This document shows positions 363 through 60,250 of a stretch of 64,000 bases of DNA, piece by piece. Below the pieces are notes generated by a model that was not told where the DNA came from, ran no database searches, and saw nothing but the letters and a program-made list of their open reading frames with translations. Every line of letters begins with the position of its first letter. Positions within the stretch are counted from its first letter, which is position 1. Both the position numbers and the translations under genes were made by a program. This DNA comes from a virus (Duplodnaviria > Heunggongvirae > Uroviricota > Caudoviricetes): IMG/VR virus record IMGVR_UViG_3300035698_013589, positions 52,033-116,032 of that record, one strand, 5' to 3'.

Positions 363-1259
363 ATGAACCCAATTGATAGTATGTGGACAGAGAAGTATAG
401 ACCTAAGAAGATTGATGAGATGGTTGGTAGTTTCAAAGCTAAAATCAAAAAGTATCTTGAAGAACCATCAAAGATGCAACACTTACTTCTACACTCTTCT
501 GTCCCAGGAACAGGAAAAACTACATTAGCGAAAGCTATAATCAATGAACTTGGCGCTGATAAATTAGTATTAAATTCTTCAGACGATAGAAAGATTGAAG
601 CTGTTAGAGAGAAAGTAAATTCTTTTGTTAAGACTAAATCATCAGTGGAAGGTATGAGAAGAATAGTTTTCATGGATGAAGCAGATGGATTGACAAATGC
701 AGCACAGGATGCTTTAAGAAATTTAATGGAAACATATTCTGAGAATGCTTTATTTATTTTGACATGTAATTATTTGTCTAAGATAAGTGATGCAATACAA
801 TCTCGATGTGCGAGTATTGAATTTACAACACCAGCAAAAACAGAAATCTTAACCTATCTTGAAATGATATGTAAGAATGAAAGCATGGAATACACAGAGG
901 ATGGATTGAAACGAATAATTGAAATCAACTATCCAAGTATAAGAAATTGTGTTCAGGTTTTACAATCATTAAACACAGAAGGTAAAGGTGCTACTGCTGA
1001 AACAGCAAAGAGTTCTGATGAAGAATACCAAATGTTGTGGGATAAGATTAATACCGACAAGGATTGGAAATTTGTCAAACAGCATCTGTTTGAGAATATT
1101 GTAGATATAAGACAACTTAATAAGTTCTTCTGGTTCAAAGCTGTTGAAGAAAGTTATGTTAAGATGATTCAGATAACTGCAGTAAACGAAGATAAGTTTA
1201 CAAGAGGTGGTGAAGCAATCATAGTGTTTGTATCATCATTAATTGATATGGCAAAGTAG
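363..1259 (+). CDS. RFC small-subunit-like clamp loader AAA+ ATPase
   Basis: N-terminal WTEKYRPKK box, Walker A VPGTGKTT, Walker B FMDEAD, sensor SRC motif; GAGG RBS upstream. Confidence 0.9.
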   Translation: MNPIDSMWTEKYRPKKIDEMVGSFKAKIKKYLEEPSKMQHLLLHSSVPGTGKTTLAKAIINELGADKLVLNSSDDRKIEAVREKVNSFVKTKSSVEGMRRIVFMDEADGLTNAAQDALRNLMETYSENALFILTCNYLSKISDAIQSRCASIEFTTPAKTEILTYLEMICKNESMEYTEDGLKRIIEINYPSIRNCVQVLQSLNTEGKGATAETAKSSDEEYQMLWDKINTDKDWKFVKQHLFENIVDIRQLNKFFWFKAVEESYVKMIQITAVNEDKFTRGGEAIIVFVSSLIDMAK

Positions 1260-4129: not shown

Positions 4130-4639
4130 ATGGAGATAAGAATGAAAGGGAGTAGGGTATTCTTTTTTGCTATAATAGTTCTAGCATTCATGGGATTGTA
4201 TAGTGGTAGCGAGATGTATAAACATGATGCTGAGAATGGTATCAGTCGAGACATATATAATTTAACTGAATCTAAAATGGTATGGAACTCATCTATATTC
4301 CCTATGGAAAGTTATAATGCTTCTATTCATAATGATAGTAATACTATAATGTATATTAGATTAAATAACATAATATATAAGATAGGAGATGCCATGGGGT
4401 TTTCTTTGTTTGAAGGAACTAAAATCTTTATGGAGATTGGGTATAACACTCAAGGCAAATACAATCTTGGGTTCTTTTTAGTATTAATCAAATTAGTTTT
4501 TTGGGCTGTAATTATAGGTGCAATGTTTTATCCTGCAATGTTTATTGGAATGGCTTGTTATGAGTTATTTAAATGGACAAGAAAGTTTATAAAATCAAGA
4601 AACTCTAAAGGAGAAGAGAATCAAAATGAAGACAAATAA
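4130..4639 (+). CDS. membrane protein
   Basis: N-terminal signal/TM and C-terminal TM segments. Confidence 0.4.
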   Translation: MEIRMKGSRVFFFAIIVLAFMGLYSGSEMYKHDAENGISRDIYNLTESKMVWNSSIFPMESYNASIHNDSNTIMYIRLNNIIYKIGDAMGFSLFEGTKIFMEIGYNTQGKYNLGFFLVLIKLVFWAVIIGAMFYPAMFIGMACYELFKWTRKFIKSRNSKGEENQNEDK

Positions 4640-6404
4640 AGGGTCAGTCTATATCCCACAAATGGACAAAGAAGAAGTATTAATATACGACATTGAGACA
4701 GCTGTAGTTGGACCAAAACCTGATGCAACTAAAGATAGACTTAAACTATTTGGGTTCTATTCATACAAGATAGGAAAGTTTGGTATCATTCCATTCACAG
4801 ATAAAGCATCAATTCAGAAGTTAATTGACAAACATAAGTTTATGGTTGGTTTTAACAACGAACAATATGATGACCCAATTCTGAAGAGGGAAGGAATATC
4901 CTTAGAATACAAAAGGATTGTAGACCTAAGAAAAATATTAAAACTTAGAGCAGGTGGAATGATTACTAAGAAAGGAATGCTTGGTAATGTTCTAATGAAA
5001 TATTCTCTGGATTACATTACAAGATTCTTAGATATTGTTGATGAGAACTCAGCTAAAGATGAGATTGATTATAACATATTTAAAAAAGATAGTTGGACTA
5101 AAGAAGAAGTTGCAACTATGAGAAAATATACTCAAAGAGATATTGAAGTAACAAAGAAACTATTTGAATGGGTAGAAGATTATTTTATCAGTTTCAAAGA
5201 TTTTGTTCCAAAGAAAGACGTTGATGGTAAATATTATCTAACAGATACTATTGCTAAGTTTGCTTACAAAGCCATTTGCCATGCGCTTGGTTGGGAGCCT
5301 GTTTATGATAGTGAGGGTTTCCAAAACACTAATCCTGAAGATAGAATCTCTGGTGGTTATGTAGCTTATCCTGCAGGTGAAAAGTTTGAAGGGGACATCT
5401 ATTGTTTAGATTTCAATTGTTTTCCTCCAAATACTAAAATACGAATGGCTGGAAAAGGTGGAGCTGATGGCCACTACCATGATAAAAATATTCAGAATAT
5501 TAAACCTGGCGATACAATAATAAACCAAGATGGTGTGCAGGTAGTTGGTGGTGTGCAGACACAAAATTATACTGGAGATTTGATAGTTATAGAATTAGAA
5601 AATGGTAGACAAATTAAGTGTACGCCAGACCATAAATTCCCAATAATTAGAGATGGGAAAGAGATGGTTGTTGAAGCACAAAACATAAGTGATACAGATG
5701 ATATGTTAACAACTAATTCAAAACATGGTAAACTAAATGGACATCATAAAGGAAAGATTCTAAAGATGTGTGAAGTATGTGGTTCAGAACATTCTGTGTT
5801 CCCATCACATGAACATATTAAAACTTGTTCAACAGAGTGTGCAAATGTATTAAGAGAATTAAATAGTCCAAAAACAAATCTTGGAAAGACTAAATACGAT
5901 ACACCACATCTTATGAGAATGTCTGAAGCGAGAACTGGTGTGCCTAGAACAGATGAACATAAAAATATAATTAGTAATGCTACAAAAGAAGCTATGAAAG
6001 ATGTCAACATGTCTGAAGTGAATAAACAAAGAGATATGTCATTCATGCAAACATCTGAATGGAGATTAAAAGTCGCTCAGTCAAAAATGAATAGTGTGAA
6101 GGCAGGAAAATTTAGATATAAAGATATAAATTTCAGGAGTAATTGGGAAGTTATTGTTGCAAAAAACCTAGACAAGAATAACATAGAGTGGAAATACGAA
6201 CCACAAGTGTTTAAGTTAGATGACGAAACATTCTATTTGCCAGATTTCTATATTCCTAAGTTCGATAAGTGGGTAGAAGTAAAAGGTTATATGTATGACC
6301 ATAGTAGAATAAAAATAGAAAAGTTTATGGAAACACATGAAAATTTTATATTGGTTAATGATTTGAATAGTGTAAAAGACGAGGATGTAAAATGGTTAAG
6401 ATAA
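4626..6404 (+). CDS. polB: Family B DNA polymerase, N-terminal part: exonuclease domain plus motif A half (DFN), fused to intein N-terminal region and endonuclease domain
   Basis: Exo I YDIET, Exo II VGFNNEQYDDPIL, Exo III YTQRDI, then YCLDFN / CFPPNTK (intein block A) and TPDHKF (block B); AGGAG RBS. Confidence 0.85.
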   Translation: MKTNKGSVYIPQMDKEEVLIYDIETAVVGPKPDATKDRLKLFGFYSYKIGKFGIIPFTDKASIQKLIDKHKFMVGFNNEQYDDPILKREGISLEYKRIVDLRKILKLRAGGMITKKGMLGNVLMKYSLDYITRFLDIVDENSAKDEIDYNIFKKDSWTKEEVATMRKYTQRDIEVTKKLFEWVEDYFISFKDFVPKKDVDGKYYLTDTIAKFAYKAICHALGWEPVYDSEGFQNTNPEDRISGGYVAYPAGEKFEGDIYCLDFNCFPPNTKIRMAGKGGADGHYHDKNIQNIKPGDTIINQDGVQVVGGVQTQNYTGDLIVIELENGRQIKCTPDHKFPIIRDGKEMVVEAQNISDTDDMLTTNSKHGKLNGHHKGKILKMCEVCGSEHSVFPSHEHIKTCSTECANVLRELNSPKTNLGKTKYDTPHLMRMSEARTGVPRTDEHKNIISNATKEAMKDVNMSEVNKQRDMSFMQTSEWRLKVAQSKMNSVKAGKFRYKDINFRSNWEVIVAKNLDKNNIEWKYEPQVFKLDDETFYLPDFYIPKFDKWVEVKGYMYDHSRIKIEKFMETHENFILVNDLNSVKDEDVKWLR

Positions 6405-6505
6405 ATAAAATAACACGGGAACCATATAATGGATTAGTGTATGATTTATCTTTAAAGAATGTAGCATCCCCATATTTTTATGCTAATAGAATACTGACAC
6501 ACAAT
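5418..6505 (+). mobile_element. intein in polB motif A (Hint blocks A,B,F,G) carrying a non-LAGLIDADG endonuclease region (CxxC...HxH, two NUMOD3-like repeats, PD-(D/E)xK-like LPDFYIP...WVEVKG)
   Basis: insertion exactly between DFN and SLYP of polymerase motif A; N-terminal Cys, C-terminal HN followed by Ser; length 1088 nt is not a multiple of 3 (frame change near 6392-6404). Confidence 0.75.
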
Positions 6506-7771
6506 AGTCTTTATCCACACATAATGATTCAATGTAATCTTTATTCAAGAAATAAGAAGGTGGCAGATGGATGGCATGGAAGTGACATGTGGAAAGTTGA
6601 AGGGTTCTATAATGATGAAAAACTAAGCCCTGTTTGTAAACTTATGAGAGCATGGTATCATCTAAGATTAAAATATAAAAGAAAATTTGTTACTGGTGAA
6701 GGTAAAGTTGTCAAGATGCTTGATGAAAAGAAAGGAACATCAGCTATGGATTATGTTGGAAAAGAATATCATAGAGTTGTTCAAAATTCAGAAGGGCAGA
6801 TTAAACTTGAGCTTGCAATGATGACTGAAGAGTCAGCAAAGGAATATGTTGAACTTGCAAAAGAAGGTGTGGACAGAAGAGAATACACAATCAAGATTAT
6901 CATTAATACAATTTATGGTTTATTGAATAATGCATACTACAAACTTGTATATGATTTAATGGCTGGTGGAGATTGCACAAGAATAGGAAGACAATGGACT
7001 AAGTATGCTCGTAAGATATTCAAAGAAGCTGGTTATAAAATTGTATATACCGATACAGATTCATGGTATGTTATTGACCATTTGAATGATAAAAAGAAAC
7101 TGCTTGAAGTTAATAAGCAAGTGATTGATAAGATAAAAGCCACTGTTCCGTTTCCGCAATTAACCTTTGATGCAGGTATAGATGATGAGATTAAATACAT
7201 GTTCTTCTTTAAAGGAACAAAGAATGAGGAAAAAGAAACTGATAGTGAGATGGACTCAGAGGATTTCTTGAACAAACCATTAGGACTGATGAAGAAAAAC
7301 TATATCTATGTCACTAAAGAAAATAAGGTTAAGATAAAGAACTTAGGAATCAAGAAGAAAAATATAAGTGCTTTATCAAAAGAAATCTTTTGGAATCATT
7401 TAGTTCCTGTTATTAAATCAGAAGGGCGAGTTAAGTTTAGTGCTGTTGAGATTGAAAACCTTATGCGTAGATTGTTGAAAGATAACATTGAACTATCATA
7501 CATGAGAAAAGAAGTGTCTCCTATATCAGCATATTCTAAATCAATCAATGGCATCCAAGCACAAATATCTAAAGCATATGGACCAGGAATACATTTCCTT
7601 ATACCAAACAAAAGAAACATTGGTGTTGGGAAGAAAGTTAAATATTGTAATGTTGATGAGTTCCAGAAATATAAGATGGAGATTTCTGATATAGATTTCT
7701 CAAACTTCTGGAAAGAACTTAACTATTTTGTCAAAGCAAGGAAACAACCAAACTTATTTGATTGGAATTAA
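6392..7771 (+). CDS. polB: Family B DNA polymerase, C-terminal part: 38-aa intein C-terminal segment (blocks F,G ...ILTHN) followed by SLYPHIM (motif A), KIIINTIYG (motif B), YTDTDS (motif C)
   Basis: starts 13 nt before stop of previous ORF in another frame; GAGGA RBS-like sequence upstream of ATG. Confidence 0.85.
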   Translation: MVKINKITREPYNGLVYDLSLKNVASPYFYANRILTHNSLYPHIMIQCNLYSRNKKVADGWHGSDMWKVEGFYNDEKLSPVCKLMRAWYHLRLKYKRKFVTGEGKVVKMLDEKKGTSAMDYVGKEYHRVVQNSEGQIKLELAMMTEESAKEYVELAKEGVDRREYTIKIIINTIYGLLNNAYYKLVYDLMAGGDCTRIGRQWTKYARKIFKEAGYKIVYTDTDSWYVIDHLNDKKKLLEVNKQVIDKIKATVPFPQLTFDAGIDDEIKYMFFFKGTKNEEKETDSEMDSEDFLNKPLGLMKKNYIYVTKENKVKIKNLGIKKKNISALSKEIFWNHLVPVIKSEGRVKFSAVEIENLMRRLLKDNIELSYMRKEVSPISAYSKSINGIQAQISKAYGPGIHFLIPNKRNIGVGKKVKYCNVDEFQKYKMEISDIDFSNFWKELNYFVKARKQPNLFDWN

Positions 7772-18448: not shown

Positions 18449-18540
18449 TTTTTTTTTCTTTAATCATGTGTTACTTTTCTTTGAATCAGGATAAAAAAGT
18501 AACACGGAAACATTTATATATTAGTTAGTATATCCTAATT
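18449..18540 (+). promoter_or_regulatory. leader module copy 7 (hairpin 18468-18505, TATA 18513-18520) followed by a second tandem promoter copy (TATA 18588-18595)
   Basis: sequence identity. Confidence 0.65.
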
Positions 18541-39560: not shown

Positions 39561-39799
39561 CATTTTTCACAAAAAAATATAAAAAAAGTAACATGATAAA
39601 AGTATTTTTTGCAAAACTTAAAGCAAGAGATGAACAAGAAGCAAAATATATATTGCGTGAAAAACATCCTTTTTGTAAAATATTAACATACAGATTTGAA
39701 AAAGATTTTAAATTTGTGCCTAAAGAAAAAAGAGATTATACAAAGAGAATTATTGAAGTTGTGTTTGTGAAAAATATAAAAGATATATGGAACGATTAA
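39557..39799 (+). CDS. hypothetical basic protein
   Basis: ORF in track. Confidence 0.35.
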   Translation: MTFFTKKYKKSNMIKVFFAKLKARDEQEAKYILREKHPFCKILTYRFEKDFKFVPKEKRDYTKRIIEVVFVKNIKDIWND

Positions 39800-41139
39800 A
39801 AATGAAATTACCTGAACAAATAACAAACATCATGGCTCATATAATTAGTCATGGATACAAGGCGTATGTAGTTGGTGGTGCAATAAGAGATTTCAAGATG
39901 AATTTTGAACCACACGATTATGATATTTTCACAAATGCCAGAGGAGAAGAATTGCTGCAACTTTTTCCAGATGGTCATGTTATTGGAAATGAAGAACGAC
40001 AGAACAAGATTTTAACCGTAATGGTTGATGATGTAGAGGTATCTACTTTCAGGCTTAACGGCGACAGAACTGAAATTGGTAACACGCTTGAAGACCATCA
40101 AAAGACTTGTGATTTCACAATGAACTCTATTGCTTGTGATATTAATGGAACTATTGATTTAGAGAATCCTTACAATGAACAAGGAGTTAAAGACATTGCA
40201 GGTAACATGCTAAGGTTTGTTGGTGAAGCTAAAGATAGGATTGAAGAAGACCAATTGAGGATATTGCGAGGACTTAGATTCTTGTTAAAATATAACATGA
40301 TGTGTGATAAAAACACAATGAACTTATTAGAACATCATGAAGTAGATGTTCCTAAAGAACGAATCAGAGAAGAACTTTTGAAGATATTTTCATTAAATCT
40401 TTATAGTGGTTTTTTAAGATTCATATTAAGATTTATGCCTAAATGTATGGCTCATTCACAGAATTTTTCATCAGGCGGAAAATGGCATGATGAAATGCCT
40501 TATGCACATTTTGAAAGTTCTTTTTTAGAGGTATCTAAGATAACATCAAACCCATTATTAAGAATGGCAGTGTTATTACATGATTCAGGAAAAGGTATCA
40601 CAAGAACTGAAGATGACGGCGAAGTTCATTTTTATGAGCATCAAAAAGTTGGTGCTGATGAAGTTAGAGCATGGATGAATGAACATAAATTTAGTAATGA
40701 TGATATTAATTATGTAACTACATTTATCTATAATCATATGCATGGATATGCAGAGAAAGAACCAAGTAAGAAATCATACATCAAATTGTTTGTTGCTCTT
40801 GATGGTGCAGGTATTTCGATAGAAGAATATGTAATGCATCTTTATGGAGATAATCAAGGTAATCATGCTAAACCAAGAATCAAGTTTGGTGATTTTGTTA
40901 AAGATAGTTTATACATCAAAAAGTATTATGAACTTAAATTCACAAATGAACCTTTCAAAATACATGACATGGAAATCTCTGGAAAAGATTTGATTGAAAA
41001 ACATGGAATGAAAGCAGGTAAACAACTTGGTGGCGTATTGAAAGAGATTTTTAATTTGATACTTGAAGGCGATTTGAAGAACGAAAAAGCTGAACTTAAT
41101 AATTATGTGAAGACAAAGGTGATTCCAAATGGAAAGTGA
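39787..41139 (+). CDS. cca: class II tRNA nucleotidyltransferase (CCA-adding enzyme) with C-terminal HD domain
   Basis: GGAIRD head motif, DYDIFT, TFRLNGDR, ERIREE; HD motif LLHDSGKG. Confidence 0.8.
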   Translation: MERLKMKLPEQITNIMAHIISHGYKAYVVGGAIRDFKMNFEPHDYDIFTNARGEELLQLFPDGHVIGNEERQNKILTVMVDDVEVSTFRLNGDRTEIGNTLEDHQKTCDFTMNSIACDINGTIDLENPYNEQGVKDIAGNMLRFVGEAKDRIEEDQLRILRGLRFLLKYNMMCDKNTMNLLEHHEVDVPKERIREELLKIFSLNLYSGFLRFILRFMPKCMAHSQNFSSGGKWHDEMPYAHFESSFLEVSKITSNPLLRMAVLLHDSGKGITRTEDDGEVHFYEHQKVGADEVRAWMNEHKFSNDDINYVTTFIYNHMHGYAEKEPSKKSYIKLFVALDGAGISIEEYVMHLYGDNQGNHAKPRIKFGDFVKDSLYIKKYYELKFTNEPFKIHDMEISGKDLIEKHGMKAGKQLGGVLKEIFNLILEGDLKNEKAELNNYVKTKVIPNGK

Positions 41140-52143: not shown

Positions 52144-52581
52144 AATGAGTATAACTGACATAGTTCAAAGAGCTATGACAGACAAAAAGATGCCTGTATT
52201 GTTGCCTATCATAGCTAAATATGATAAAGAATATAAAGGTGTTTCAATGACAGGCCAAAAATATGATGAGTATGTTGGGAAAGTATTTAAGGAATATATG
52301 ACGGAGACACAAAATGACACATGATTTTGAATGCCCTTATTGTGGAGCAGAAGACGATTATTGTGACGACCCAGTGGGTGAAGGCGACCCAATAGAAATA
52401 GAATGCCATAAATGTGAAAAGAACTTCATTATCAGACCATCATATTCAATAGATTATTCAAGCGAAAAAGCACCATGTCTTAATGGCGGAAAACATGAAT
52501 GGAGACCACAATGTGGCGCACCAAAAGAGTTTTTTGAAGGTAAGTTTGAGTGCATAATTTGCGATAAGAGGAAGAACGAAA

Positions 52582-52851
52582 ATGTGCAAAAAAACTGAAT
52601 ATAAGATACCAAATCCACGGATTGATAAGTGCATGAGAGTGTTCATGCATAATCTATCTCAAGGATGTGACGGAACATACGAAATACTCGGATGTTGTTG
52701 CGGACACGGAAAGTACCCAATGACGATTGTTACAAAAAATAAACGAGGACAAATCTTCGATATGGTCAGTAACGTCGATATACCAAGAAAAAGAAAGTTT
52801 TACAAACGAGATAAAGATGGTTATTATTACATTCCAGAGATATTAAAATAG
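52582..52851 (+). CDS. Cys-rich hypothetical protein
   Basis: ORF in track. Confidence 0.4.
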   Translation: MCKKTEYKIPNPRIDKCMRVFMHNLSQGCDGTYEILGCCCGHGKYPMTIVTKNKRGQIFDMVSNVDIPRKRKFYKRDKDGYYYIPEILK

Positions 52852-52889
52852 AAACCTTTATATATTAGTTATCTTATACTAATTACATT
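52852..52889 (+). promoter_or_regulatory. BRE/TATA promoter copy (gaaaccTTTATATAttagttatcttatactaattaca)
   Basis: consensus match; TATA 52858-52865. Confidence 0.55.
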
Positions 52890-53205
52890 ACACTCACAGG
52901 CTACCCATCTAGCCTCACCTGATGGGAGTTTACGTTTTTTGCTCTGAAAAAAACAGTCTTCAGCAGGTTGCAACTACATCAACCGCAGTTCGGAGTGAAT
53001 TGACCATCTGAGCAATCAGGAGTGACCAACAGCTTGTGGGCGTGTCACGTCAGGTCTTTTTACATCTACAAGCCCAGACATTTGGATGCAATACTCCATT
53101 TGTTTTCATACTCACATTAAAGATGTGGGCTAAGAGCAGAGTTGATGGCCATGATTGTGAGATTGTGGAACCCCTGATGAGTTGCTCTCCATGTCTTTAA
53201 TCATG
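52890..53205 (+). ncRNA. candidate structured non-coding RNA (GC-enriched, promoter-driven, ~315 nt)
   Basis: no ORF; nested helices 53116-53128/53189-53201 and 53134-53138/53183-53187; pseudoknot candidate 52898-52926; several other hairpins. Confidence 0.4.
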
Positions 53206-53211
53206 ATTAAA

Positions 53212-53340
53212 ATGGAAAAAACAAACAAACAGAAACTACACTCTTGCACACATAGAACATATTGTAAAAAAAGTGCATTTGATTGCAAGGAATGTAATGA
53301 TTGGGAACATGACAAAAGAGTTGTGATTTCAAAGATATAG
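53212..53340 (+). CDS. 42-aa zinc-ribbon mini-protein (CTHRTYC...CKEC)
   Basis: manual ORF, four Cys plus His. Confidence 0.3.
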   Translation: MEKTNKQKLHSCTHRTYCKKSAFDCKECNDWEHDKRVVISKI

Positions 53341-53350
53341 GGGGATATAT

Positions 53351-53581
53351 ATGGAAAATAAACCAAAAAGCAAATTAACATTTACTATTATTATGATTGT
53401 CTTGGTTGCTACTATGATTGTAATTGCAGGATTTTTAGGCGGTGCAATCAAGCATAAAGAGATACAAAATAACCTTAAAGTTGGCATTGATACTTGTGCT
53501 GATGTAGAATCAGAAGCACGGCTTGAAACGGCTGAAGGTAGCAAAGATATAATCTGGCGATGTGTAAAACCAGCTAATTAA
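53351..53581 (+). CDS. TM protein, paralog family member (KHxEIQxNL...IIWRC)
   Basis: similarity to 54485-54802. Confidence 0.5.
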   Translation: MENKPKSKLTFTIIMIVLVATMIVIAGFLGGAIKHKEIQNNLKVGIDTCADVESEARLETAEGSKDIIWRCVKPAN

Positions 53582-53619
53582 TTTTTTTTATTTCACAAAT
53601 ATTAGAGTAGGTAAACAAT

Positions 53620-54252
53620 ATGGGAATAATAGGTTCAAGACAAATAAAATTCGGAACAGCATCCGTACCACCAATCAAATACAATGAAAGCGTTAACATT
53701 GATGGATACGAGAAAGTTGTTACAGTTTTTTCTAAATTGTTTTTAGCAAGATTCTCTGCAGAATCAGAATTTTATCCTGATTCATCAGATAGATACAATG
53801 ATTACATTAAACAAACTATAGGATTCTTGACCAAGATTAATGCCTTACATAAAGTATCAAATAAACATCTCAGGAAAGTAAAGCTATGGAAAGAACGTGT
53901 TGAGATGCCACCTTTTTATGAAGGTATCGCAGTATCACTAAAAAGTATGTTGATTAAGAAACATTTTCCATCTATGGACAAGGCAATGAATGAAGGTGCG
54001 GTTTATAGTCATTATTCACTAACTGTTGTAGGTGAATGTGTTGAATATATTATGGAGTTTTTTCAGTCTCATAAAATGTTCAAAGATGTAGATGTGGTGA
54101 TTAAAAACCCAGTAGTTATCAAATGGGTTGATGACCATAATAAATATCTTGAAGAAAATAAGGAACGGCTTGAAAAGGAAGAGAAACAACGAGAAGATAA
54201 ACGAGCTAAGGATTTCGAAGAAATTAACAAAAAGCTTGACGAATTAAAATGA
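53620..54252 (+). CDS. hypothetical protein
   Basis: ORF in track. Confidence 0.45.
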   Translation: MGIIGSRQIKFGTASVPPIKYNESVNIDGYEKVVTVFSKLFLARFSAESEFYPDSSDRYNDYIKQTIGFLTKINALHKVSNKHLRKVKLWKERVEMPPFYEGIAVSLKSMLIKKHFPSMDKAMNEGAVYSHYSLTVVGECVEYIMEFFQSHKMFKDVDVVIKNPVVIKWVDDHNKYLEENKERLEKEEKQREDKRAKDFEEINKKLDELK

Positions 54253-54484: not shown

Positions 54485-54802
54485 ATGAGTGTACATGATA
54501 AACCTTGGAGACCACAAGCTCGTGAAATATTAGAGCATTTAGAAGAAGAAGAATACAAAAATTTAATGGTTATTCGAAAGCCAAACATTATAACTGGTAT
54601 ATGTTTTATTATTATTATCGGTTGTATTGCAATGTTTGGTAGTCTCGTTGGTGAATCAAACAAACATGCAGAAATTCAAAAAAATCTTGCTAATGGTATC
54701 AAAACATGCGGTGAACATTCAGCAGAAGCACGGCTTGAAATTGATGTTAATGGAAGCATTATTTGGCGATGCATGATACCTTCAAACTACACAGGTGATT
54801 GA
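54485..54802 (+). CDS. TM protein, paralog of 53351-53581
   Basis: shared NKHAEIQKNLANGIKTCGEHSAEARLE...IIWRC. Confidence 0.5.
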   Translation: MSVHDKPWRPQAREILEHLEEEEYKNLMVIRKPNIITGICFIIIIGCIAMFGSLVGESNKHAEIQKNLANGIKTCGEHSAEARLEIDVNGSIIWRCMIPSNYTGD

Positions 54803-54988: not shown

Positions 54989-55345
54989 ATGAAGACAGTA
55001 TTAATCGTGGAAGACACTGAGGCATTAGCTTTTTTGTACGAAGAAGTAATAGAAGATTTAGGGTATAATGTCATACTTGCAGAAAATGGTGTTGAAGGGT
55101 TTAAAAAATACAACGTGAATAAACCTGATGCGGTTATCACAGATAGTAAAATGCCTATCATGGCAGGACAGGAATTGGTTGACATCATAAGAGAAATTGA
55201 TGGGAAAACACCAATCTTGTTTCATAGTATGGATGACTTACCAACTGTGTATGGAATACCAAATTTATACACAGCAAAGAAAGACCCATGCCAAGATTAT
55301 ATAGTTGAATTTTTAGAAAGAACAATAGGTAAATGTGATGTTTAA
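54989..55345 (+). CDS. standalone CheY-like response-regulator receiver domain
   Basis: VLIVEDTE, DAVITDSKMPIMAGQEL, KTPILFHS (Thr and Lys positions). Confidence 0.7.
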   Translation: MKTVLIVEDTEALAFLYEEVIEDLGYNVILAENGVEGFKKYNVNKPDAVITDSKMPIMAGQELVDIIREIDGKTPILFHSMDDLPTVYGIPNLYTAKKDPCQDYIVEFLERTIGKCDV

Positions 55346-58095: not shown

Positions 58096-59691
58096 ATGAG
58101 TAGGTTCAATAAAACAAGCGTAAGCGACAAGATTACAACAAACAAAGAAGGTTCAAAAGCATTCAAGCTAACTTCTGATTATGAATTATATACATTAGTT
58201 GCAACATCAGCACTAAATAACAAATTCTATGAAAAAACAGATGAAAGAATTGAAAGATTAAGAACTCTGATTAAGAAATGCGACCCTATGTTCGTGGCTA
58301 AATTAGCTGTGTATGCAAGGGAATCAATGTATTTGAGAAGTATTCCATTAGTATTAACTGTGGAACTTAACAAACATCTTAATGAAATCAAAGCTAAGAA
58401 AAGCATGATTACAACATTATCAACAAGAGTAATCCAAAGAGCTGATGAAATTACTGAAATCCTAGCATATTACTCACTTGCTAACAAAGCAAATGAGAAA
58501 GCTGGTGAAGCTGGTCAAGTTAAGAAATTAGCTAAATTATCAAAGGCACTTCAAAAAGGTGTAGCTAATGCTTTCCACAAATTTGATGAATATCAATTTG
58601 CAAAGTATAATAGGAAAACTGACATCAAATTAAAAGATGCATTATTCCTTACACACCCAAAACCTGAAAGTTCTACAGAAACAGAACTCTTTAAGAAAAT
58701 TGCAAGTGATACTTTGGAAACTCCTAAGACTTGGGAAGTTGAAATGTCTACTGCAAAAGGTAAAGACAAAACACCTAAACAAGTTTGGGAAGATATGATT
58801 GATTCAGGTAAACTTGGTTACATGGCTCTAATGAGAAATTTGAGAAACATTCTGCAAGCAGATGTATCCCAAAAACATGTATTCAAAGTAGCTGATATGT
58901 TAGAAAACAAAGAACTTGTTGTGAAAGCTAAACAATTACCATTCAGATTTTTGGCAGCATATAACGAACTGAAAAAGGCTTCAGGCGACTATCCTAGTGG
59001 TAGATACTCCTATTCCGATGAAACAGAAGTGACATTAAAAAATAAAGCAAATGTCACAATCATCTTGGAAGCCCTTGACAACGCAATCAAAGCATCTGTT
59101 GAAAACTTAAAAGGATTCAGCAGAGACATGAATGTAATGATTGCTTGTGATGTTTCAGGTAGTATGATGTCAAAAATCAGTCCTCAAAGTTCAATCGAAA
59201 TGTATGACATTGGATTAACTTTAGGTATGATTTTACAACATAAATGCAAGTATGTAGTTACTGGTATCTTCGGTGATACTTTCAAAACTAAAGCATTCCC
59301 AAGAGATAGTATCCTTGAAAATGTAATGAAGTTTAAGAAAATCGAAGGTGAAGTAGGTTACAGCACTAACGGATACAAAGTACTTGATTACCTAATCCAA
59401 GCAGGCGATAAAGTAGACAAAGTAATGATGTTTACTGATTGTCAAATGTGGAACAGCTCTGGATATAATAGAGATAATCTTATTCCTGCAAGATGGAACA
59501 GATACAAAGAAATTAATCCAGAAGCTAAACTTTACTTGTTCGACATGCAAGGTTACGGAGATACACCAATTGACATGATTCAAAAGGATGTATTCTTGAT
59601 TGCAGGTTGGTCTGACAAAGTGTTTGACATACTTGAAAGTCTTGAAAATGGTGAAGATGCGATTAAAGTAATTAATGACATCAAATTATAA
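58096..59691 (+). CDS. rsr: Ro60 orthologue (TROVE domain plus vWA domain; Rsr-like)
   Basis: TROVE features (RSIPLVLTVEL, LPFRFLAAYNEL like Ro60 PFHILIA...Y), vWA MIDAS MIACDVSGSM and MMFTDCQMW; ~530 aa typical size; true start ATG 58096 after GGAGGTG. Confidence 0.85.
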   Translation: MSRFNKTSVSDKITTNKEGSKAFKLTSDYELYTLVATSALNNKFYEKTDERIERLRTLIKKCDPMFVAKLAVYARESMYLRSIPLVLTVELNKHLNEIKAKKSMITTLSTRVIQRADEITEILAYYSLANKANEKAGEAGQVKKLAKLSKALQKGVANAFHKFDEYQFAKYNRKTDIKLKDALFLTHPKPESSTETELFKKIASDTLETPKTWEVEMSTAKGKDKTPKQVWEDMIDSGKLGYMALMRNLRNILQADVSQKHVFKVADMLENKELVVKAKQLPFRFLAAYNELKKASGDYPSGRYSYSDETEVTLKNKANVTIILEALDNAIKASVENLKGFSRDMNVMIACDVSGSMMSKISPQSSIEMYDIGLTLGMILQHKCKYVVTGIFGDTFKTKAFPRDSILENVMKFKKIEGEVGYSTNGYKVLDYLIQAGDKVDKVMMFTDCQMWNSSGYNRDNLIPARWNRYKEINPEAKLYLFDMQGYGDTPIDMIQKDVFLIAGWSDKVFDILESLENGEDAIKVINDIKL

Positions 59692-59788
59692 TTTTTTTTT
59701 ATTTATATTCATAATCGAAAGAAATAAAAAGGAGAACAACTCCTGTTCATGTTAATGAAGACTGAACCTCTTCATTATTTGTTTGTTT

Positions 59789-60250
59789 AATGGCGTAGAA
59801 TACGGATACTTCAAATCTGGAAAAAAACCGTATTTGTTCTTTCCTTAAATAACCTACTCATGGTGGCGTAGGTTGGTAATACTTCGAAACTGAAAATATC
59901 GTTGGGAGCAATCCCAAAACCTTACCAATCGTTTGTTCCCCTTCATTATCCTAACCAGCTATGGTGGATTATGGGAGCCAAGGATGTGCACACTAACTTG
60001 GTAAACTCAAATAGTAAACAATGGTGGCGTAGAGCACGATTTCATCGAAACTGAAACCAAATTTCAACTAAAAACTTCGTGTTTGATTGTTCCCCACTCA
60101 TATTCAAAAGGTGGCGTAGTAAAGAGTTACTTCGACATGTAATCGAGAGGCCACGGGTTCAAATCCCGTTGCATCCTTCGGGATGTATAGCTCAGTCTGG
60201 TAGAGCGCTAAAATCTCTCTTTACGATTGTTCCCCTTTCATATTCAATCA
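59789..60250 (+). ncRNA. array of five tandem structured RNA-like units (candidate Y RNAs) with conserved junction motif ...GATTGTTCCCCWYTCATATTC...(A)GGTGGCGTAG
   Basis: units start at ~59789, 59862, 59963, 60023, 60110; each has a different but internally complementary helix (ATACGG/CCGTAT, TTGGTAA/TTACCAA, GCACGA/TCGTG, TAAAGAG/CTCTTTA). Confidence 0.5.
60110..60235 (+). ncRNA. YrlA-like Y RNA candidate with circularly permuted tRNA-like module (T-arm 60153-60169, acceptor hairpin closed by TTCG 60170-60187, D-arm 60190-60206)
   Basis: ACGGG-TTCAAAT-CCCGT, TGCATCC-ttcg-GGATGTA, TA-GCTC-AGTCTGGT-AGAGC all readable; enclosed by helix TAAAGAG/CTCTTTA. Confidence 0.55.

What the first reader, a model, noticed from the sequence alone, without database searches (positions are those of the whole stretch)
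52852..53205. Promoter-driven GC-enriched structured RNA candidate with pseudoknot and nested helices
Directly after a canonical promoter copy (TATA 52858-52865) lies ~315 nt with no ORF. Its GC content is visibly higher than its surroundings. I could read several structures:
- a 13-bp helix, ATTAAAGATGTGG (53116-28) pairing CCATGTCTTTAAT (53189-201), with two G-U pairs
- stacked on an inner GAGCA/TGCTC helix
- a hairpin AGGCTA-CCCATC-TAGCCT whose loop (CCCATC) is complementary to GATGGG 6 nt downstream, an H-type pseudoknot candidate at 52898-52926
- hairpins GGTTG-n9-CAACC and TGGGC-n30-GCCCA

This looks like a dedicated non-coding RNA gene of unknown class. It could be a regulatory RNA or a mimic of a host RNA. 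A 42-aa zinc-ribbon ORF follows at 53212.
Basis: seen in the sequence. Interest (0 to 1): 0.6.

Follow-up and report, generated by a model that had tools for sequence, protein, structure and literature searches.

The report
Conserved structured viral RNA, class unknown
Just after a repeated viral promoter lies a roughly 317-base stretch that codes for no protein but is conserved and folds the same way in the only related virus found, so it is very probably a real structured RNA of a family not yet described, with unknown function.

Summary
Window 52887-53203 (+) has no credible ORF and is 44.5% G+C against 32% for the window. It starts where a 12-copy promoter cassette ends.

One homologue was found, in Logan contig L001, behind the same cassette. 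It is better conserved than the flanking genes (77% against 68-69% nucleotide identity). Its substitutions show no codon periodicity and its indels are not multiples of three. All 56 modelled base pairs are kept in both copies, through 4 double and 4 single compensating changes.

Consensus folding beats column shuffles: z -4.7 overall and -5.3 for the 3' rod, but only -0.4 for the rod's reverse complement. The full-length single sequence alone is not significant (z -1.05).

No Rfam family matches. Every other search for a further copy came back empty.

The proposed pseudoknot is unproven. The same CCCAUC:GAUGGG pairing also fits a plain nested hairpin.

The element is probably an archaeal virus. 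It also carries Ro60 with its own YrlA-like RNAs, so this RNA is not the Y RNA.

Whether it acts as a free RNA or as an operon leader is unresolved. I favour a protein-binding RNA.

The parts
52851..52887 (+). Promoter cassette copy: BRE-like GAAACC, TATA box TTTATATA (52857-52864), conserved spacer, and CA at 52886-52887 as the inferred start site.
   Evidence: There are 12 copies in the window, all on the + strand and upstream of ORFs, against 1.1 expected by chance. The same cassette precedes the homologue at L001:747. The geometry fits an archaeal promoter with its TATA box centred near -26; that fit rests on established knowledge, not on a test. The start site is inferred.
52887..53203 (+). 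Conserved non-coding structured RNA, about 317 nt.
   Evidence: The homologue is at L001:777-1087. Identity is 77% against 68-69% in the flanking genes. Substitutions by phase are 19/14/18, against 14/9/45 and 61/23/96 in the genes. Indels are 1, 2, 3 or 4 nt long. Consensus fold z is -4.70. All 56 pairs form in both copies. No Rfam hit.
52898..52926 (+). 5' hairpin AGGCUA-CCCAUC-UAGCCU plus GAUGGG. It can be read as a pseudoknot or as the nested hairpin AGGCU-A-CCCAUC / GAUGGG-AGUUU (to 52931).
   Evidence: This block is 100% identical in both copies, so covariation cannot test it. The nested form scores -12.3 to -14.1 kcal/mol, against -7.1 to -7.3 for the small hairpin alone.
52918..53020 (+). 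Long-range helix: CCUGAU (52918-23) pairs with AUCAGG (53015-20) and closes the 5' multi-helix domain.
   Evidence: Three consecutive pairs change on both sides, CCU:AGG in the window to UUC:GAA in L001.
52934..52954 (+). A/U hairpin G-U6 / A6-C with the 7-nt loop GCUCUGA. Its U6 run is also a possible archaeal termination or pause tract.
   Evidence: L001 has C-U5 / A5-G with the loop GCUCUAA, so the closing pair is flipped and the stem is one pair shorter (read). The stem is weak: -3.7 and -2.8 kcal/mol.
52963..52994 (+). Hairpin GC-GGUUG / CAACC-GC with a variable loop, followed by the invariant AGUUCGGA.
   Evidence: The stem is invariant. In L001 it gains a U-A pair where the window has C/U.
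53037..53076 (+). Hairpin UGGGC...GCCCA with conserved flanks and a variable interior.
   Evidence: It forms in both copies, and the interior differs in sequence and length.
53076..53113 (+). Sequence-variable hairpin followed by a U-rich tail; terminator-like.
   Evidence: The window has AGACA..UGGA/UCCA..UGUUU (-8.3 kcal/mol). L001 has an 11-bp stem at 962-987 followed by UUAUAUU, which the terminator scan flagged. The shape is kept but the sequence is not.
53116..53201 (+). 3' rod. From the base upwards: 13-bp helix, 4-nt bulge GCUA, 7-bp helix, symmetric 7x7 internal loop (AGUUGAU / UGAUGAG), 2 bp, 4-nt bulge AACC, 8-bp helix, GUGA (GNRA) tetraloop at 53157-60.
   Evidence: z is -2.57 in the window and -2.76 in L001, against -0.49 for the minus strand. 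Consensus z is -5.32 with a structure conservation index (SCI) of 1.05, against -0.38 for the reverse complement. The helices keep pairing through two A-U to G-U changes, one double change and two further single changes. In the loop, U.G becomes U-A in L001 (read).
53212..53589 (+). Probable remainder of the transcription unit: a 42-codon Cys-rich ORF (53212-53340), a 76-codon membrane-protein ORF (53351-53581), and a T8 tract (53582-53589).
   Evidence: In L001 a different 52-codon membrane ORF follows the RNA, and then a hairpin plus T7. That these ORFs share a transcript with the RNA is inferred.

Best explanation
Window 52887-53203 encodes a structured non-coding RNA that is under purifying selection. 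It is transcribed on the + strand from one copy of the element's own repeated promoter cassette.

The RNA has two parts:
- A 5' multi-helix domain, closed by a covarying long-range helix.
- A roughly 86-nt 3' rod. The rod carries a GNRA tetraloop and a 7x7 internal loop that can stack as non-canonical pairs (tandem sheared G.A flanked by U.U).

My preferred reading is that it works as an RNA in its own right. It would be a stable scaffold or decoy bound by viral or host proteins, with the rod's internal loop and tetraloop as docking sites. It would not be a switch dedicated to the gene that happens to follow it.

Shown here: non-coding status, conservation, strand, and conserved secondary structure.
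Inferred: the start site, the transcript ends, protein binding, and action in trans.
For: Non-coding and under selection:
- The RNA is 77% identical between the window and L001, and 88% (80 of 91 positions) in the 3' rod.
- The flanking genes are 68-69% identical overall, and about 45-50% of their third codon positions differ.
- The RNA shows no codon periodicity, and its indels are 1-4 nt long.

Structure:
- 56 of 56 pairs form in both copies, through 4 double and 4 single compensating changes. Controls with the partners slid by 1-3 columns pair only 36-44%.
- Consensus-fold z is -4.70 for the whole RNA and -5.32 for the rod, with SCI 1.05.

Strand:
- Two A-U to G-U changes and several fixed G.U pairs make sense only on the + strand.
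- The rod's reverse complement gives z -0.38 and -0.49.
- All genes and all 12 cassette copies are on the + strand.

Independence from the downstream gene:
- The RNA and both outer neighbours (the 89-aa and 210-aa proteins) are shared by the two genomes.
- The ORFs directly downstream differ. The window has a 42-aa Cys-rich ORF plus a 76-aa membrane ORF; L001 has a 52-aa membrane ORF.
- The most conserved part, the rod, lies after a terminator-like hairpin. That is not where a riboswitch places its conserved part.

No known family matches.
Against: - Only two copies are known, and the structure model was partly derived from them. The covariation rests on few events.
- No terminator follows the rod. 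In the window the next ORF begins 8-10 nt later, so the RNA may never exist apart from the mRNA.
- The full-length single-sequence fold is not better than shuffles (z -1.05).
- No expression data are available.
- No protein partner is identified, and no complementary target of 12 nt or more lies in the window.
- U5-U6 runs inside the RNA could end archaeal transcription early.
Confidence: 0.45

Rival explanations
1. It is a cis-acting leader, such as an attenuator or riboswitch-like sensor, for the short operon that follows. The conserved 5' domain would sense a signal. It would then choose between the small hairpin plus long-range helix and the extended hairpin followed by U6. It would also govern the variable hairpin plus U-rich tail at 53076-53113, and so control read-through into the small membrane-protein ORFs.
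For: - The RNA sits between a promoter and ORFs, with no terminator after the rod.
- Two mutually exclusive folds share CCCAUC/GAUGGG.
- The structure-conserved but sequence-variable hairpin with a U-rich tail behaves like an expression platform. It was flagged as terminator-like in L001.
- In both genomes the unit ends, after small membrane-protein ORFs, at a T-rich terminator.
Against: - The ORFs directly downstream are not homologous in the two genomes.
- The best-conserved block, the rod, lies downstream of the putative terminator.
- At 317 nt it is very long for a leader, and no riboswitch or T-box model matches even at E up to 10.
- The elements that would switch are invariant, so nothing tests the switch.
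Confidence: 0.28
2. There are two separate elements. A roughly 215-nt small RNA would run from 52887 to the terminator-like hairpin near 53105. The 3' rod would be an independent element of the read-through mRNA, such as a processing site or a translational-operator hairpin for a viral protein.
For: - A hairpin plus U-rich tail lies at the domain boundary in both copies.
- The rod folds on its own with SCI 1.05.
- About 20 bp of near-continuous helix is a typical length for a double-strand-specific nuclease site (established knowledge).
Against: - The tail is weak in the window (UUUUCAUAC).
- The rod's loops are as conserved as its stems, which is more than a simple cleavage site needs.
- If the host is archaeal, RNase III is generally absent (established knowledge).
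- No data on transcript ends.
Confidence: 0.12
3. It is a partner or substrate of the element's Ro60 protein, that is, a Y-RNA-like or quality-control RNA.
For: - Both genomes that carry the RNA also carry Ro60, 5-7.4 kb downstream.
- The Ro60 gene has a variant of the same promoter cassette.
- The invariant GUUCGGA at 52988-52994 loosely resembles the vertebrate GGUCCGA (PMC4201824).
Against: - It is 317 nt long, against 80-130 nt for Y RNAs.
- It has no GNCGAAN0-1G motif and no tRNA-like arms.
- It gives no YrlA model hit, whereas the array directly after Ro60 does: 35.7 bits, E 3.9e-6 at 60146-60209.
- The relative L042, with Ro60 79% identical, lacks the RNA within 10 kb.
Confidence: 0.06
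4. It is not a functional RNA. It would be a decayed gene, recently shared DNA, or a DNA-level site such as an origin or a packaging signal.
For: Only two copies are known, both in closely related genomes. Inverted repeats also occur in DNA-level sites.
Against: - It is better conserved than the neighbouring coding sequence, although third codon positions there differ at about 45-50%.
- Compensating changes and G.U pairs are specific to one strand.
- The block pattern, with conserved stems and loops beside variable hairpin interiors, is not what decay produces.
Confidence: 0.07

Closest known systems
Orphan structured RNA motifs of phages and metagenomes found by comparative genomics (the kind catalogued in Rfam without a known function)
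   Same: An intergenic island richer in G+C than its AT-rich surroundings. Conserved blocks alternate with variable hairpin interiors. There are compensatory changes and a GNRA tetraloop. No function can be assigned from context.
   Different: It matches none of the 4227 Rfam models. Only two copies are known, far fewer than is usual for defining a motif.
Bacterial and phage Y RNAs (YrlA, Rfam RF02553) that partner Ro60
   Same: It is encoded in a genome that carries Ro60, and it is a virus-encoded structured RNA with a long stem.
   Different: It is three times longer. It has no tRNA-like T and D arms, no GNCGAA motif and no model hit. The genuine YrlA-like modules lie directly after the Ro60 gene at 59.8-60.2 kb.
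Riboswitch and attenuator leaders
   Same: It lies between a promoter and ORFs. It has alternative 5' folds and a terminator-like hairpin with a variable sequence.
   Different: The downstream genes are not conserved. The most conserved domain lies after the terminator-like hairpin. No known aptamer class matches.
Phage phi29 packaging RNA (pRNA, Rfam RF00044)
   Same: It is a virus-encoded, promoter-driven structured RNA. It has a hairpin loop (CCCAUC) that is exactly complementary to a nearby segment it would have difficulty pairing with inside the same molecule. In pRNA, complementarity of that kind drives pairing between molecules. This is recalled knowledge and a lead only.
   Different: No model hit. 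It is not at a genome end or near packaging genes in the window. The complementarity also fits a simple nested hairpin.
Hammerhead ribozyme
   Same: The window contains the core heptamer CUGAUGA at 53174-53180.
   Different: L001 has CUGAUAA, which changes the conserved G. There is no stem II followed by GAAA, and no Rfam hit. The heptamer is better read as one strand of the 7x7 internal loop.

Membership tests
Y RNA / YrlA (RF02553) | Length 80-130 nt, with a long stem formed by the 5' and 3' ends (PMC4201824) | tested here: not met
   The conserved unit is about 317 nt. Its 5' and 3' ends do not pair with each other.
Y RNA / YrlA (RF02553) | GNCGAAN0-1G (or GGUCCGA) Ro60-binding motif near the 5' end | tested here: not met
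   No GNCGAA motif lies in window 52887-53203. The only partial resemblance is the invariant GUUCGGA (reading).
Y RNA / YrlA (RF02553) | tRNA-like T and D arms, and a covariance-model match | tested here: not met
   ARAGORN and Rfam find nothing here. The same tools hit 60109-60209, next to Ro60.
Riboswitch / cis-regulatory leader | Position in the 5' untranslated region of the regulated gene | tested here: met
   The promoter cassette ends at 52887, and the first ORF starts at 53203-53212.
Riboswitch / cis-regulatory leader | Recurrent association with the same gene family or pathway | tested here: not met
   The ORFs directly downstream differ between the window and L001. With only two genomes this is a weak test.
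Riboswitch / cis-regulatory leader | Mutually exclusive terminator and anti-terminator folds, supported by covariation | tested here: inconclusive
   Alternative folds exist and a terminator-like hairpin is present. The competing segments are invariant.
   Both 6-nt complementarities are present and invariant. Loops L1 and L2 would be 0 nt. A nested fold using the same CCCAUC:GAUGGG pairs is more stable than the small hairpin alone.
Hammerhead ribozyme | Conserved CUGANGA...GAAA core around three stems | tested here: not met
   CUGAUGA in the window is CUGAUAA in L001. There is no stem II/GAAA arrangement and no Rfam hit.
Group I intron; SRP, RNase P, 6S, tmRNA, pRNA, T-box | Match to the family covariance model | tested here: not met
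   No hit even at E up to 10 with permissive filters, in either copy. The upstream ORF ends in a stop codon before the cassette, so there are no flanking exons.
Archaeal-type promoter (BRE/TATA/initiator) | A-rich BRE directly upstream of an 8-bp TATA box centred about 26 nt before a pyrimidine-purine start | tested here: met
   GAAAC(A/C) + TTTATATA + 21 nt + CA, and cassette conservation stops at that CA in 12 copies. This is a sequence match only; transcription was not tested. Archaeal affinity is supported by the RFC small subunit and PolB best hits.

The most novel reading that the evidence does not exclude
This is the founding member of a new class of virus-encoded structured RNA in an uncultivated, probably archaeal, virus lineage. 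It would be either the RNA core of a ribonucleoprotein or a ribozyme. It would be expressed from the virus's own early-type promoter and would act in trans on host RNA metabolism, alongside the same virus's Ro60/Y-RNA and CCA-adding functions.
Probability: 0.25. Interest if true: 0.8.

Novelty: new variant of a known kind. Interest (0 to 1): 0.52.

Why it matters
Very few non-coding RNAs are known from archaeal viruses or from deep-branching uncultivated virus lineages. Large structured RNAs with conserved tertiary-style motifs often turn out to be ribozymes, riboswitches or ribonucleoprotein cores.

This one sits in a genome that already invests heavily in RNA handling. It carries Ro60 with an array of Y-RNA-like genes and a CCA-adding enzyme. 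The RNA could therefore show how such viruses manipulate host RNA metabolism.

The finding is concrete. It gives defined ends, a testable secondary structure and a second copy for comparison. With only two copies and no expression data it remains a candidate.

Tried and rejected
Known RNA families
- Rfam at gathering thresholds on the whole window, and at E up to 10 on both copies: no family for this region.
- ARAGORN: nothing here.

Searches for more copies
- blastn against 50,697 phage records: no match.
- Five RNA patterns against IMG/VR: four found nothing. The fifth gave five chance hits inside genes of unrelated high-G+C phages.
- One gapped pattern against JGI metagenomes: 11 chance hits, none homologous.
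- Two patterns against 185,579 species genomes: nothing.

Protein-guided retrieval
- The 210-aa neighbour has 4 homologues. Only L001 carries the RNA.
- The 89-aa neighbour has 328 homologues. The contexts I fetched (L019-L041) lack the RNA.
- Ro60 relatives L042/L043 (79% identical) and L044-L049 lack it by nhmmer and by a covariance model of the rod.

Readings rejected
- Coding: substitutions show no periodicity. In the one frame that stays open through the rod, 10 of 11 changes are non-synonymous. The 29-codon ORF at 52922 stops after 8 codons in L001.
- Antisense regulator of a window gene: no complementarity of 12 nt or more, and 11-mers occur at about the chance rate.
- A window-specific helix GCUCUGAA/UUCGGAGU and a CACUC/GAGUG closure: both are broken in L001.
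- K-turn in the rod's internal loop: the flanking pairs required do not form, and a symmetric 7x7 register fits better.

Full report
**1. The observation**

Reading window 52400-53700 confirms every feature at the stated coordinates.
- TTTATATA lies at 52857-52864.
- The hairpin AGGCUA/UAGCCU (52898-52915) has the loop CCCAUC, and GAUGGG follows at 52921-52926.
- GGUUG-n9-CAACC lies at 52966-52984.
- UGGGC-n30-GCCCA lies at 53037-53076.
- The 13-bp helix pairs 53116-53128 with 53189-53201 and has two G.U pairs.
- The inner helix is really 7 bp: AGAGCAG 53133-39 with UUGCUCU 53182-88.

Only ORFs of 29, 32 and 54 codons lie on the + strand. G+C is 44.5% against 32.0% for the window. The 200-nt maximum of 0.475 is one of the three highest in 64 kb.

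**2. The promoter**

The TATA belongs to a longer cassette, (cg)AAACA-TTTATATA-(G/T)TAGTTA-n-CTAATTACA.
- It occurs 12 times in the window, always on the + strand, against 1.1 expected by chance.
- All 64 kb of genes are on the + strand.
- The copies lie upstream of ORFs, including the Ro60 gene.
- Conservation among copies stops at the final CA, 31 nt after the first T of the TATA box. That geometry is what an archaeal BRE/TATA/initiator promoter predicts (established knowledge), and it puts the start near A52887.

An archaeal affinity of the element is supported by several results.
- The RFC small subunit (363-1259) best matches archaeal RFCS (1iqp, 2chg; E 1e-43 to 1e-41), above T4 gp44.
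- The intein-split PolB best matches Thermococcales PolB. It has no tblastn match in 50,697 phage records.
- Homologues of the neighbouring 89-aa protein sit next to STT3 and S-layer genes.

One result points the other way: the nearest cellular Ro60 homologues are from Bacteroidota, at 52-55% identity. The host domain is therefore probable, not proven. "Promoter-driven" is an inference from sequence.

**3. A second copy**

No Rfam family matches. Searching with the 210-aa protein downstream (53620-54252) gave four homologues.

The best, at 68% identity, lies on Logan contig L001. L001 carries the same order: an 89-aa-type gene, the promoter cassette, a 311-nt gap with no called gene, and then the homologue of the 210-aa gene. 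The gap aligns with the window RNA along its full length.

Measured in the same way:

| Region | Nucleotide identity | Substitutions by phase |
|---|---|---|
| RNA | 77% | 19 / 14 / 18 |
| 89-aa gene | 68% | 14 / 9 / 45 |
| 210-aa gene | 69% | 61 / 23 / 96 |

- The RNA's indels are 1, 2, 3 or 4 nt long.
- The L001 copy is also G+C-enriched, 42.8% against 29.2% for its contig.
- About 45-50% of third codon positions differ in the neighbouring genes, so the RNA is under purifying selection and is not coding.
- The ORFs directly downstream differ. The window has a 42-aa Cys-rich ORF with no Shine-Dalgarno-like motif, then a 76-aa membrane protein. L001 has a 52-aa membrane protein.

**4. Structure**

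RNAalifold on the two sequences, plus manual inspection, gives the model listed under parts. Counting pairs on that model gives the following.
- 56 pairs form in 100% of cells in both copies.
- Four pairs change on both sides. Three are consecutive in the long-range helix 52918-23/53015-20 (CCU:AGG to UUC:GAA). One is in the rod's apical helix.
- Four pairs change on one side and keep pairing. Two of these are A-U to G-U.
- With the 3' partners slid by 1-3 columns, only 36-44% of cells pair, and 0-1 pairs change on both sides.

The model was partly derived from these same sequences, so these numbers lean in its favour.

An independent test compared the consensus fold energy with column-shuffled alignments.

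| Region | z, + strand | z, reverse complement |
|---|---|---|
| Whole RNA | -4.70 (0 of 200 shuffles as good) | -2.37 |
| 5' domain | -3.30 | not run |
| Middle | -2.11 | not run |
| 3' rod | -5.32 (SCI 1.05) | -0.38 |

Single-sequence folds give z -2.57 and -2.76 for the rod in the two copies, and -0.49 for its minus strand. The whole 331-nt single sequence gives only -1.05. The domain and comparative tests overturn it.

Further structure-preserving differences:
- An A/U hairpin reads G-U6/A6-C in the window and C-U5/A5-G in L001, with the loop GCUCU(G/A)A.
- A hairpin at 53076-53105 keeps its shape but not its sequence, and is followed by a U-rich tail. The L001 version was flagged as terminator-like.
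- In the rod, the 7x7 internal loop AGUUGAU/UGAUGAG can stack as U.U, A.G, G.A, U.U, U.G, G.A, A.G.
- The only substitution in that loop turns the U.G into U-A in L001.
- The apical loop is GUGA, a GNRA tetraloop, in both copies.

**5. The pseudoknot**

CCCAUC and GAUGGG are complementary, but both are invariant, so nothing tests the pairing. As an H-type pseudoknot it would have zero-length loops L1 and L2.

The same CCCAUC:GAUGGG pairing also forms within a plain nested hairpin, AGGCU-A-CCCAUC / GAUGGG-AGUUU. That form scores -12.3 to -14.1 kcal/mol, against -7.1 to -7.3 for the small hairpin alone.

GAU is also shared with the covarying long-range helix. This end of the RNA therefore has at least two mutually exclusive folds. 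That is compatible with a switch but does not show one.

**6. How widespread it is**

Every other route to further copies failed.
- blastn against phage records found nothing.
- Five patterns against IMG/VR gave four empty results and one set of chance hits.
- One pattern against JGI metagenomes gave chance hits only.
- Two patterns against species genomes found nothing.
- All fetched contexts of the 328 homologues of the 89-aa protein lack the RNA.
- So do the Ro60 relatives L042-L049. L042, with Ro60 79% identical, has only 4.4 kb between Band_7 and Ro60, where the window has 11.8 kb.

The RNA therefore belongs to a narrow clade, and to a variable stretch of small genes within it.

**7. What it is not**

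- Not the Ro60 partner. Directly after Ro60 (58096-59691) lies an array of modules that begin (U)GGUGGCGUAG and end UUGUUCCCC. The last of them gives a sub-threshold YrlA hit: RF02553, 35.7 bits, E 3.9e-6. The array is conserved in L001. The target RNA has none of the Y-RNA features described in PMC4201824.
- Not a hammerhead. CUGAUGA in the window is CUGAUAA in L001.
- Not an intron. A stop codon and a promoter lie upstream, and no model matches.
- Not an antisense regulator of anything in the window.

**8. Most likely function**

Shown: the region is a conserved, + strand, non-coding structured RNA.

Inferred: it starts at about 52887. Because no terminator follows the rod, it is made as the 5' part of a short transcript. 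That transcript would end at T8 (53582-89) in the window, and at a hairpin plus T7 in L001.

I favour a stable protein-binding RNA acting in its own right (0.45), for three reasons.
- The RNA is conserved while its downstream genes are swapped.
- The most conserved module is a rod with a non-canonical internal loop and a GNRA loop. These are typical protein or RNA docking features.
- That rod lies after the terminator-like hairpin.

The rivals are a cis-acting attenuator or leader (0.28), two separate elements (0.12), a non-functional or DNA-level element (0.07) and a Ro60 partner or substrate (0.06).

**9. Verdict**

This is a real and apparently undescribed structured RNA, but it has only two members and no expression data. 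Interest is moderate at 0.52. It would be high if more copies or a transcript confirm it.

Noticed in passing
window 58096-60240; L001 8451-10510: A Ro60/TROVE gene (PF05731 1.8e-31, plus the vWA_Ro60 domain) is followed by about 500 nt of non-coding DNA. That DNA holds 4-5 tandem modules that begin (U)GGUGGCGUAG, contain ACUUCGAAAC, and end UUGUUCCCC. The last module gives a sub-threshold YrlA hit (RF02553, 35.7 bits) at 60146-60209. The 'tRNA-Thr' that ARAGORN and Rfam call at 60109-60179 is probably part of this Y-RNA-like array and not a decoding tRNA. The array is conserved in L001. A tandem array of Y-like RNAs in a probably archaeal virus looks unusual.
   Followed up: partly
window 14166, 14615, 15136, 15446, 16730, 17244, 18513, 18588, 23937, 52857, 58045: A roughly 45-nt promoter cassette with BRE/TATA-like geometry is repeated on the + strand. 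At 14-17 kb the copies are followed by a conserved 5' leader hairpin (GGUUAUCAUUAACC...UUAAUGAUGGGG) just before the start codon. Two copies lie 75 nt apart at 18513 and 18588.
   Followed up: partly
window 4626-7771: The family B DNA polymerase is split over two ORFs. The first carries an intein-splicing domain (PF14890) and an HNH/resolvase-like endonuclease region. The polymerase part has no tblastn match in 50,697 phage records.
   Followed up: partly
window 363-1259: The RFC small-subunit homologue best matches archaeal RFCS structures (1iqp, 2chg; E about 1e-43 to 1e-41). This points to an archaeal virus or archaeal mobile element.
   Followed up: partly
window 39787-41139: A class II CCA-adding or poly(A) polymerase-type nucleotidyltransferase with an HD domain (PF01743, PF13735, PF01966). 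With Ro60 and the Y-like RNAs it suggests an RNA repair or quality-control module.
   Followed up: no
L002 60-215: In a more distant relative of the 210-aa gene cluster, the position upstream of the small membrane ORF holds a different G+C-rich non-coding element. It has a tRNA-like T arm (GGUUCAAAUCC) and complementary ends, and ARAGORN does not call it.
   Followed up: no
window 53351-53581 and 54485-54802: Two paralogous small membrane proteins share a C-terminal motif (…EARLE…IIWRC…P.N). One of them lies in the transcription unit that follows the RNA.
   Followed up: no
window 54989-55345: A stand-alone response-regulator receiver domain protein (PF00072, 2.6e-15) is encoded in the viral genome.
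   Followed up: no
L036 14634-19569; L026: Homologues of the 89-aa Cys-rich protein upstream of the RNA are embedded in large clusters of glycosyltransferase, radical-SAM, STT3 and S-layer genes, on low-G+C contigs of up to 129 kb. These may be archaeal chromosomes or giant elements.
   Followed up: no
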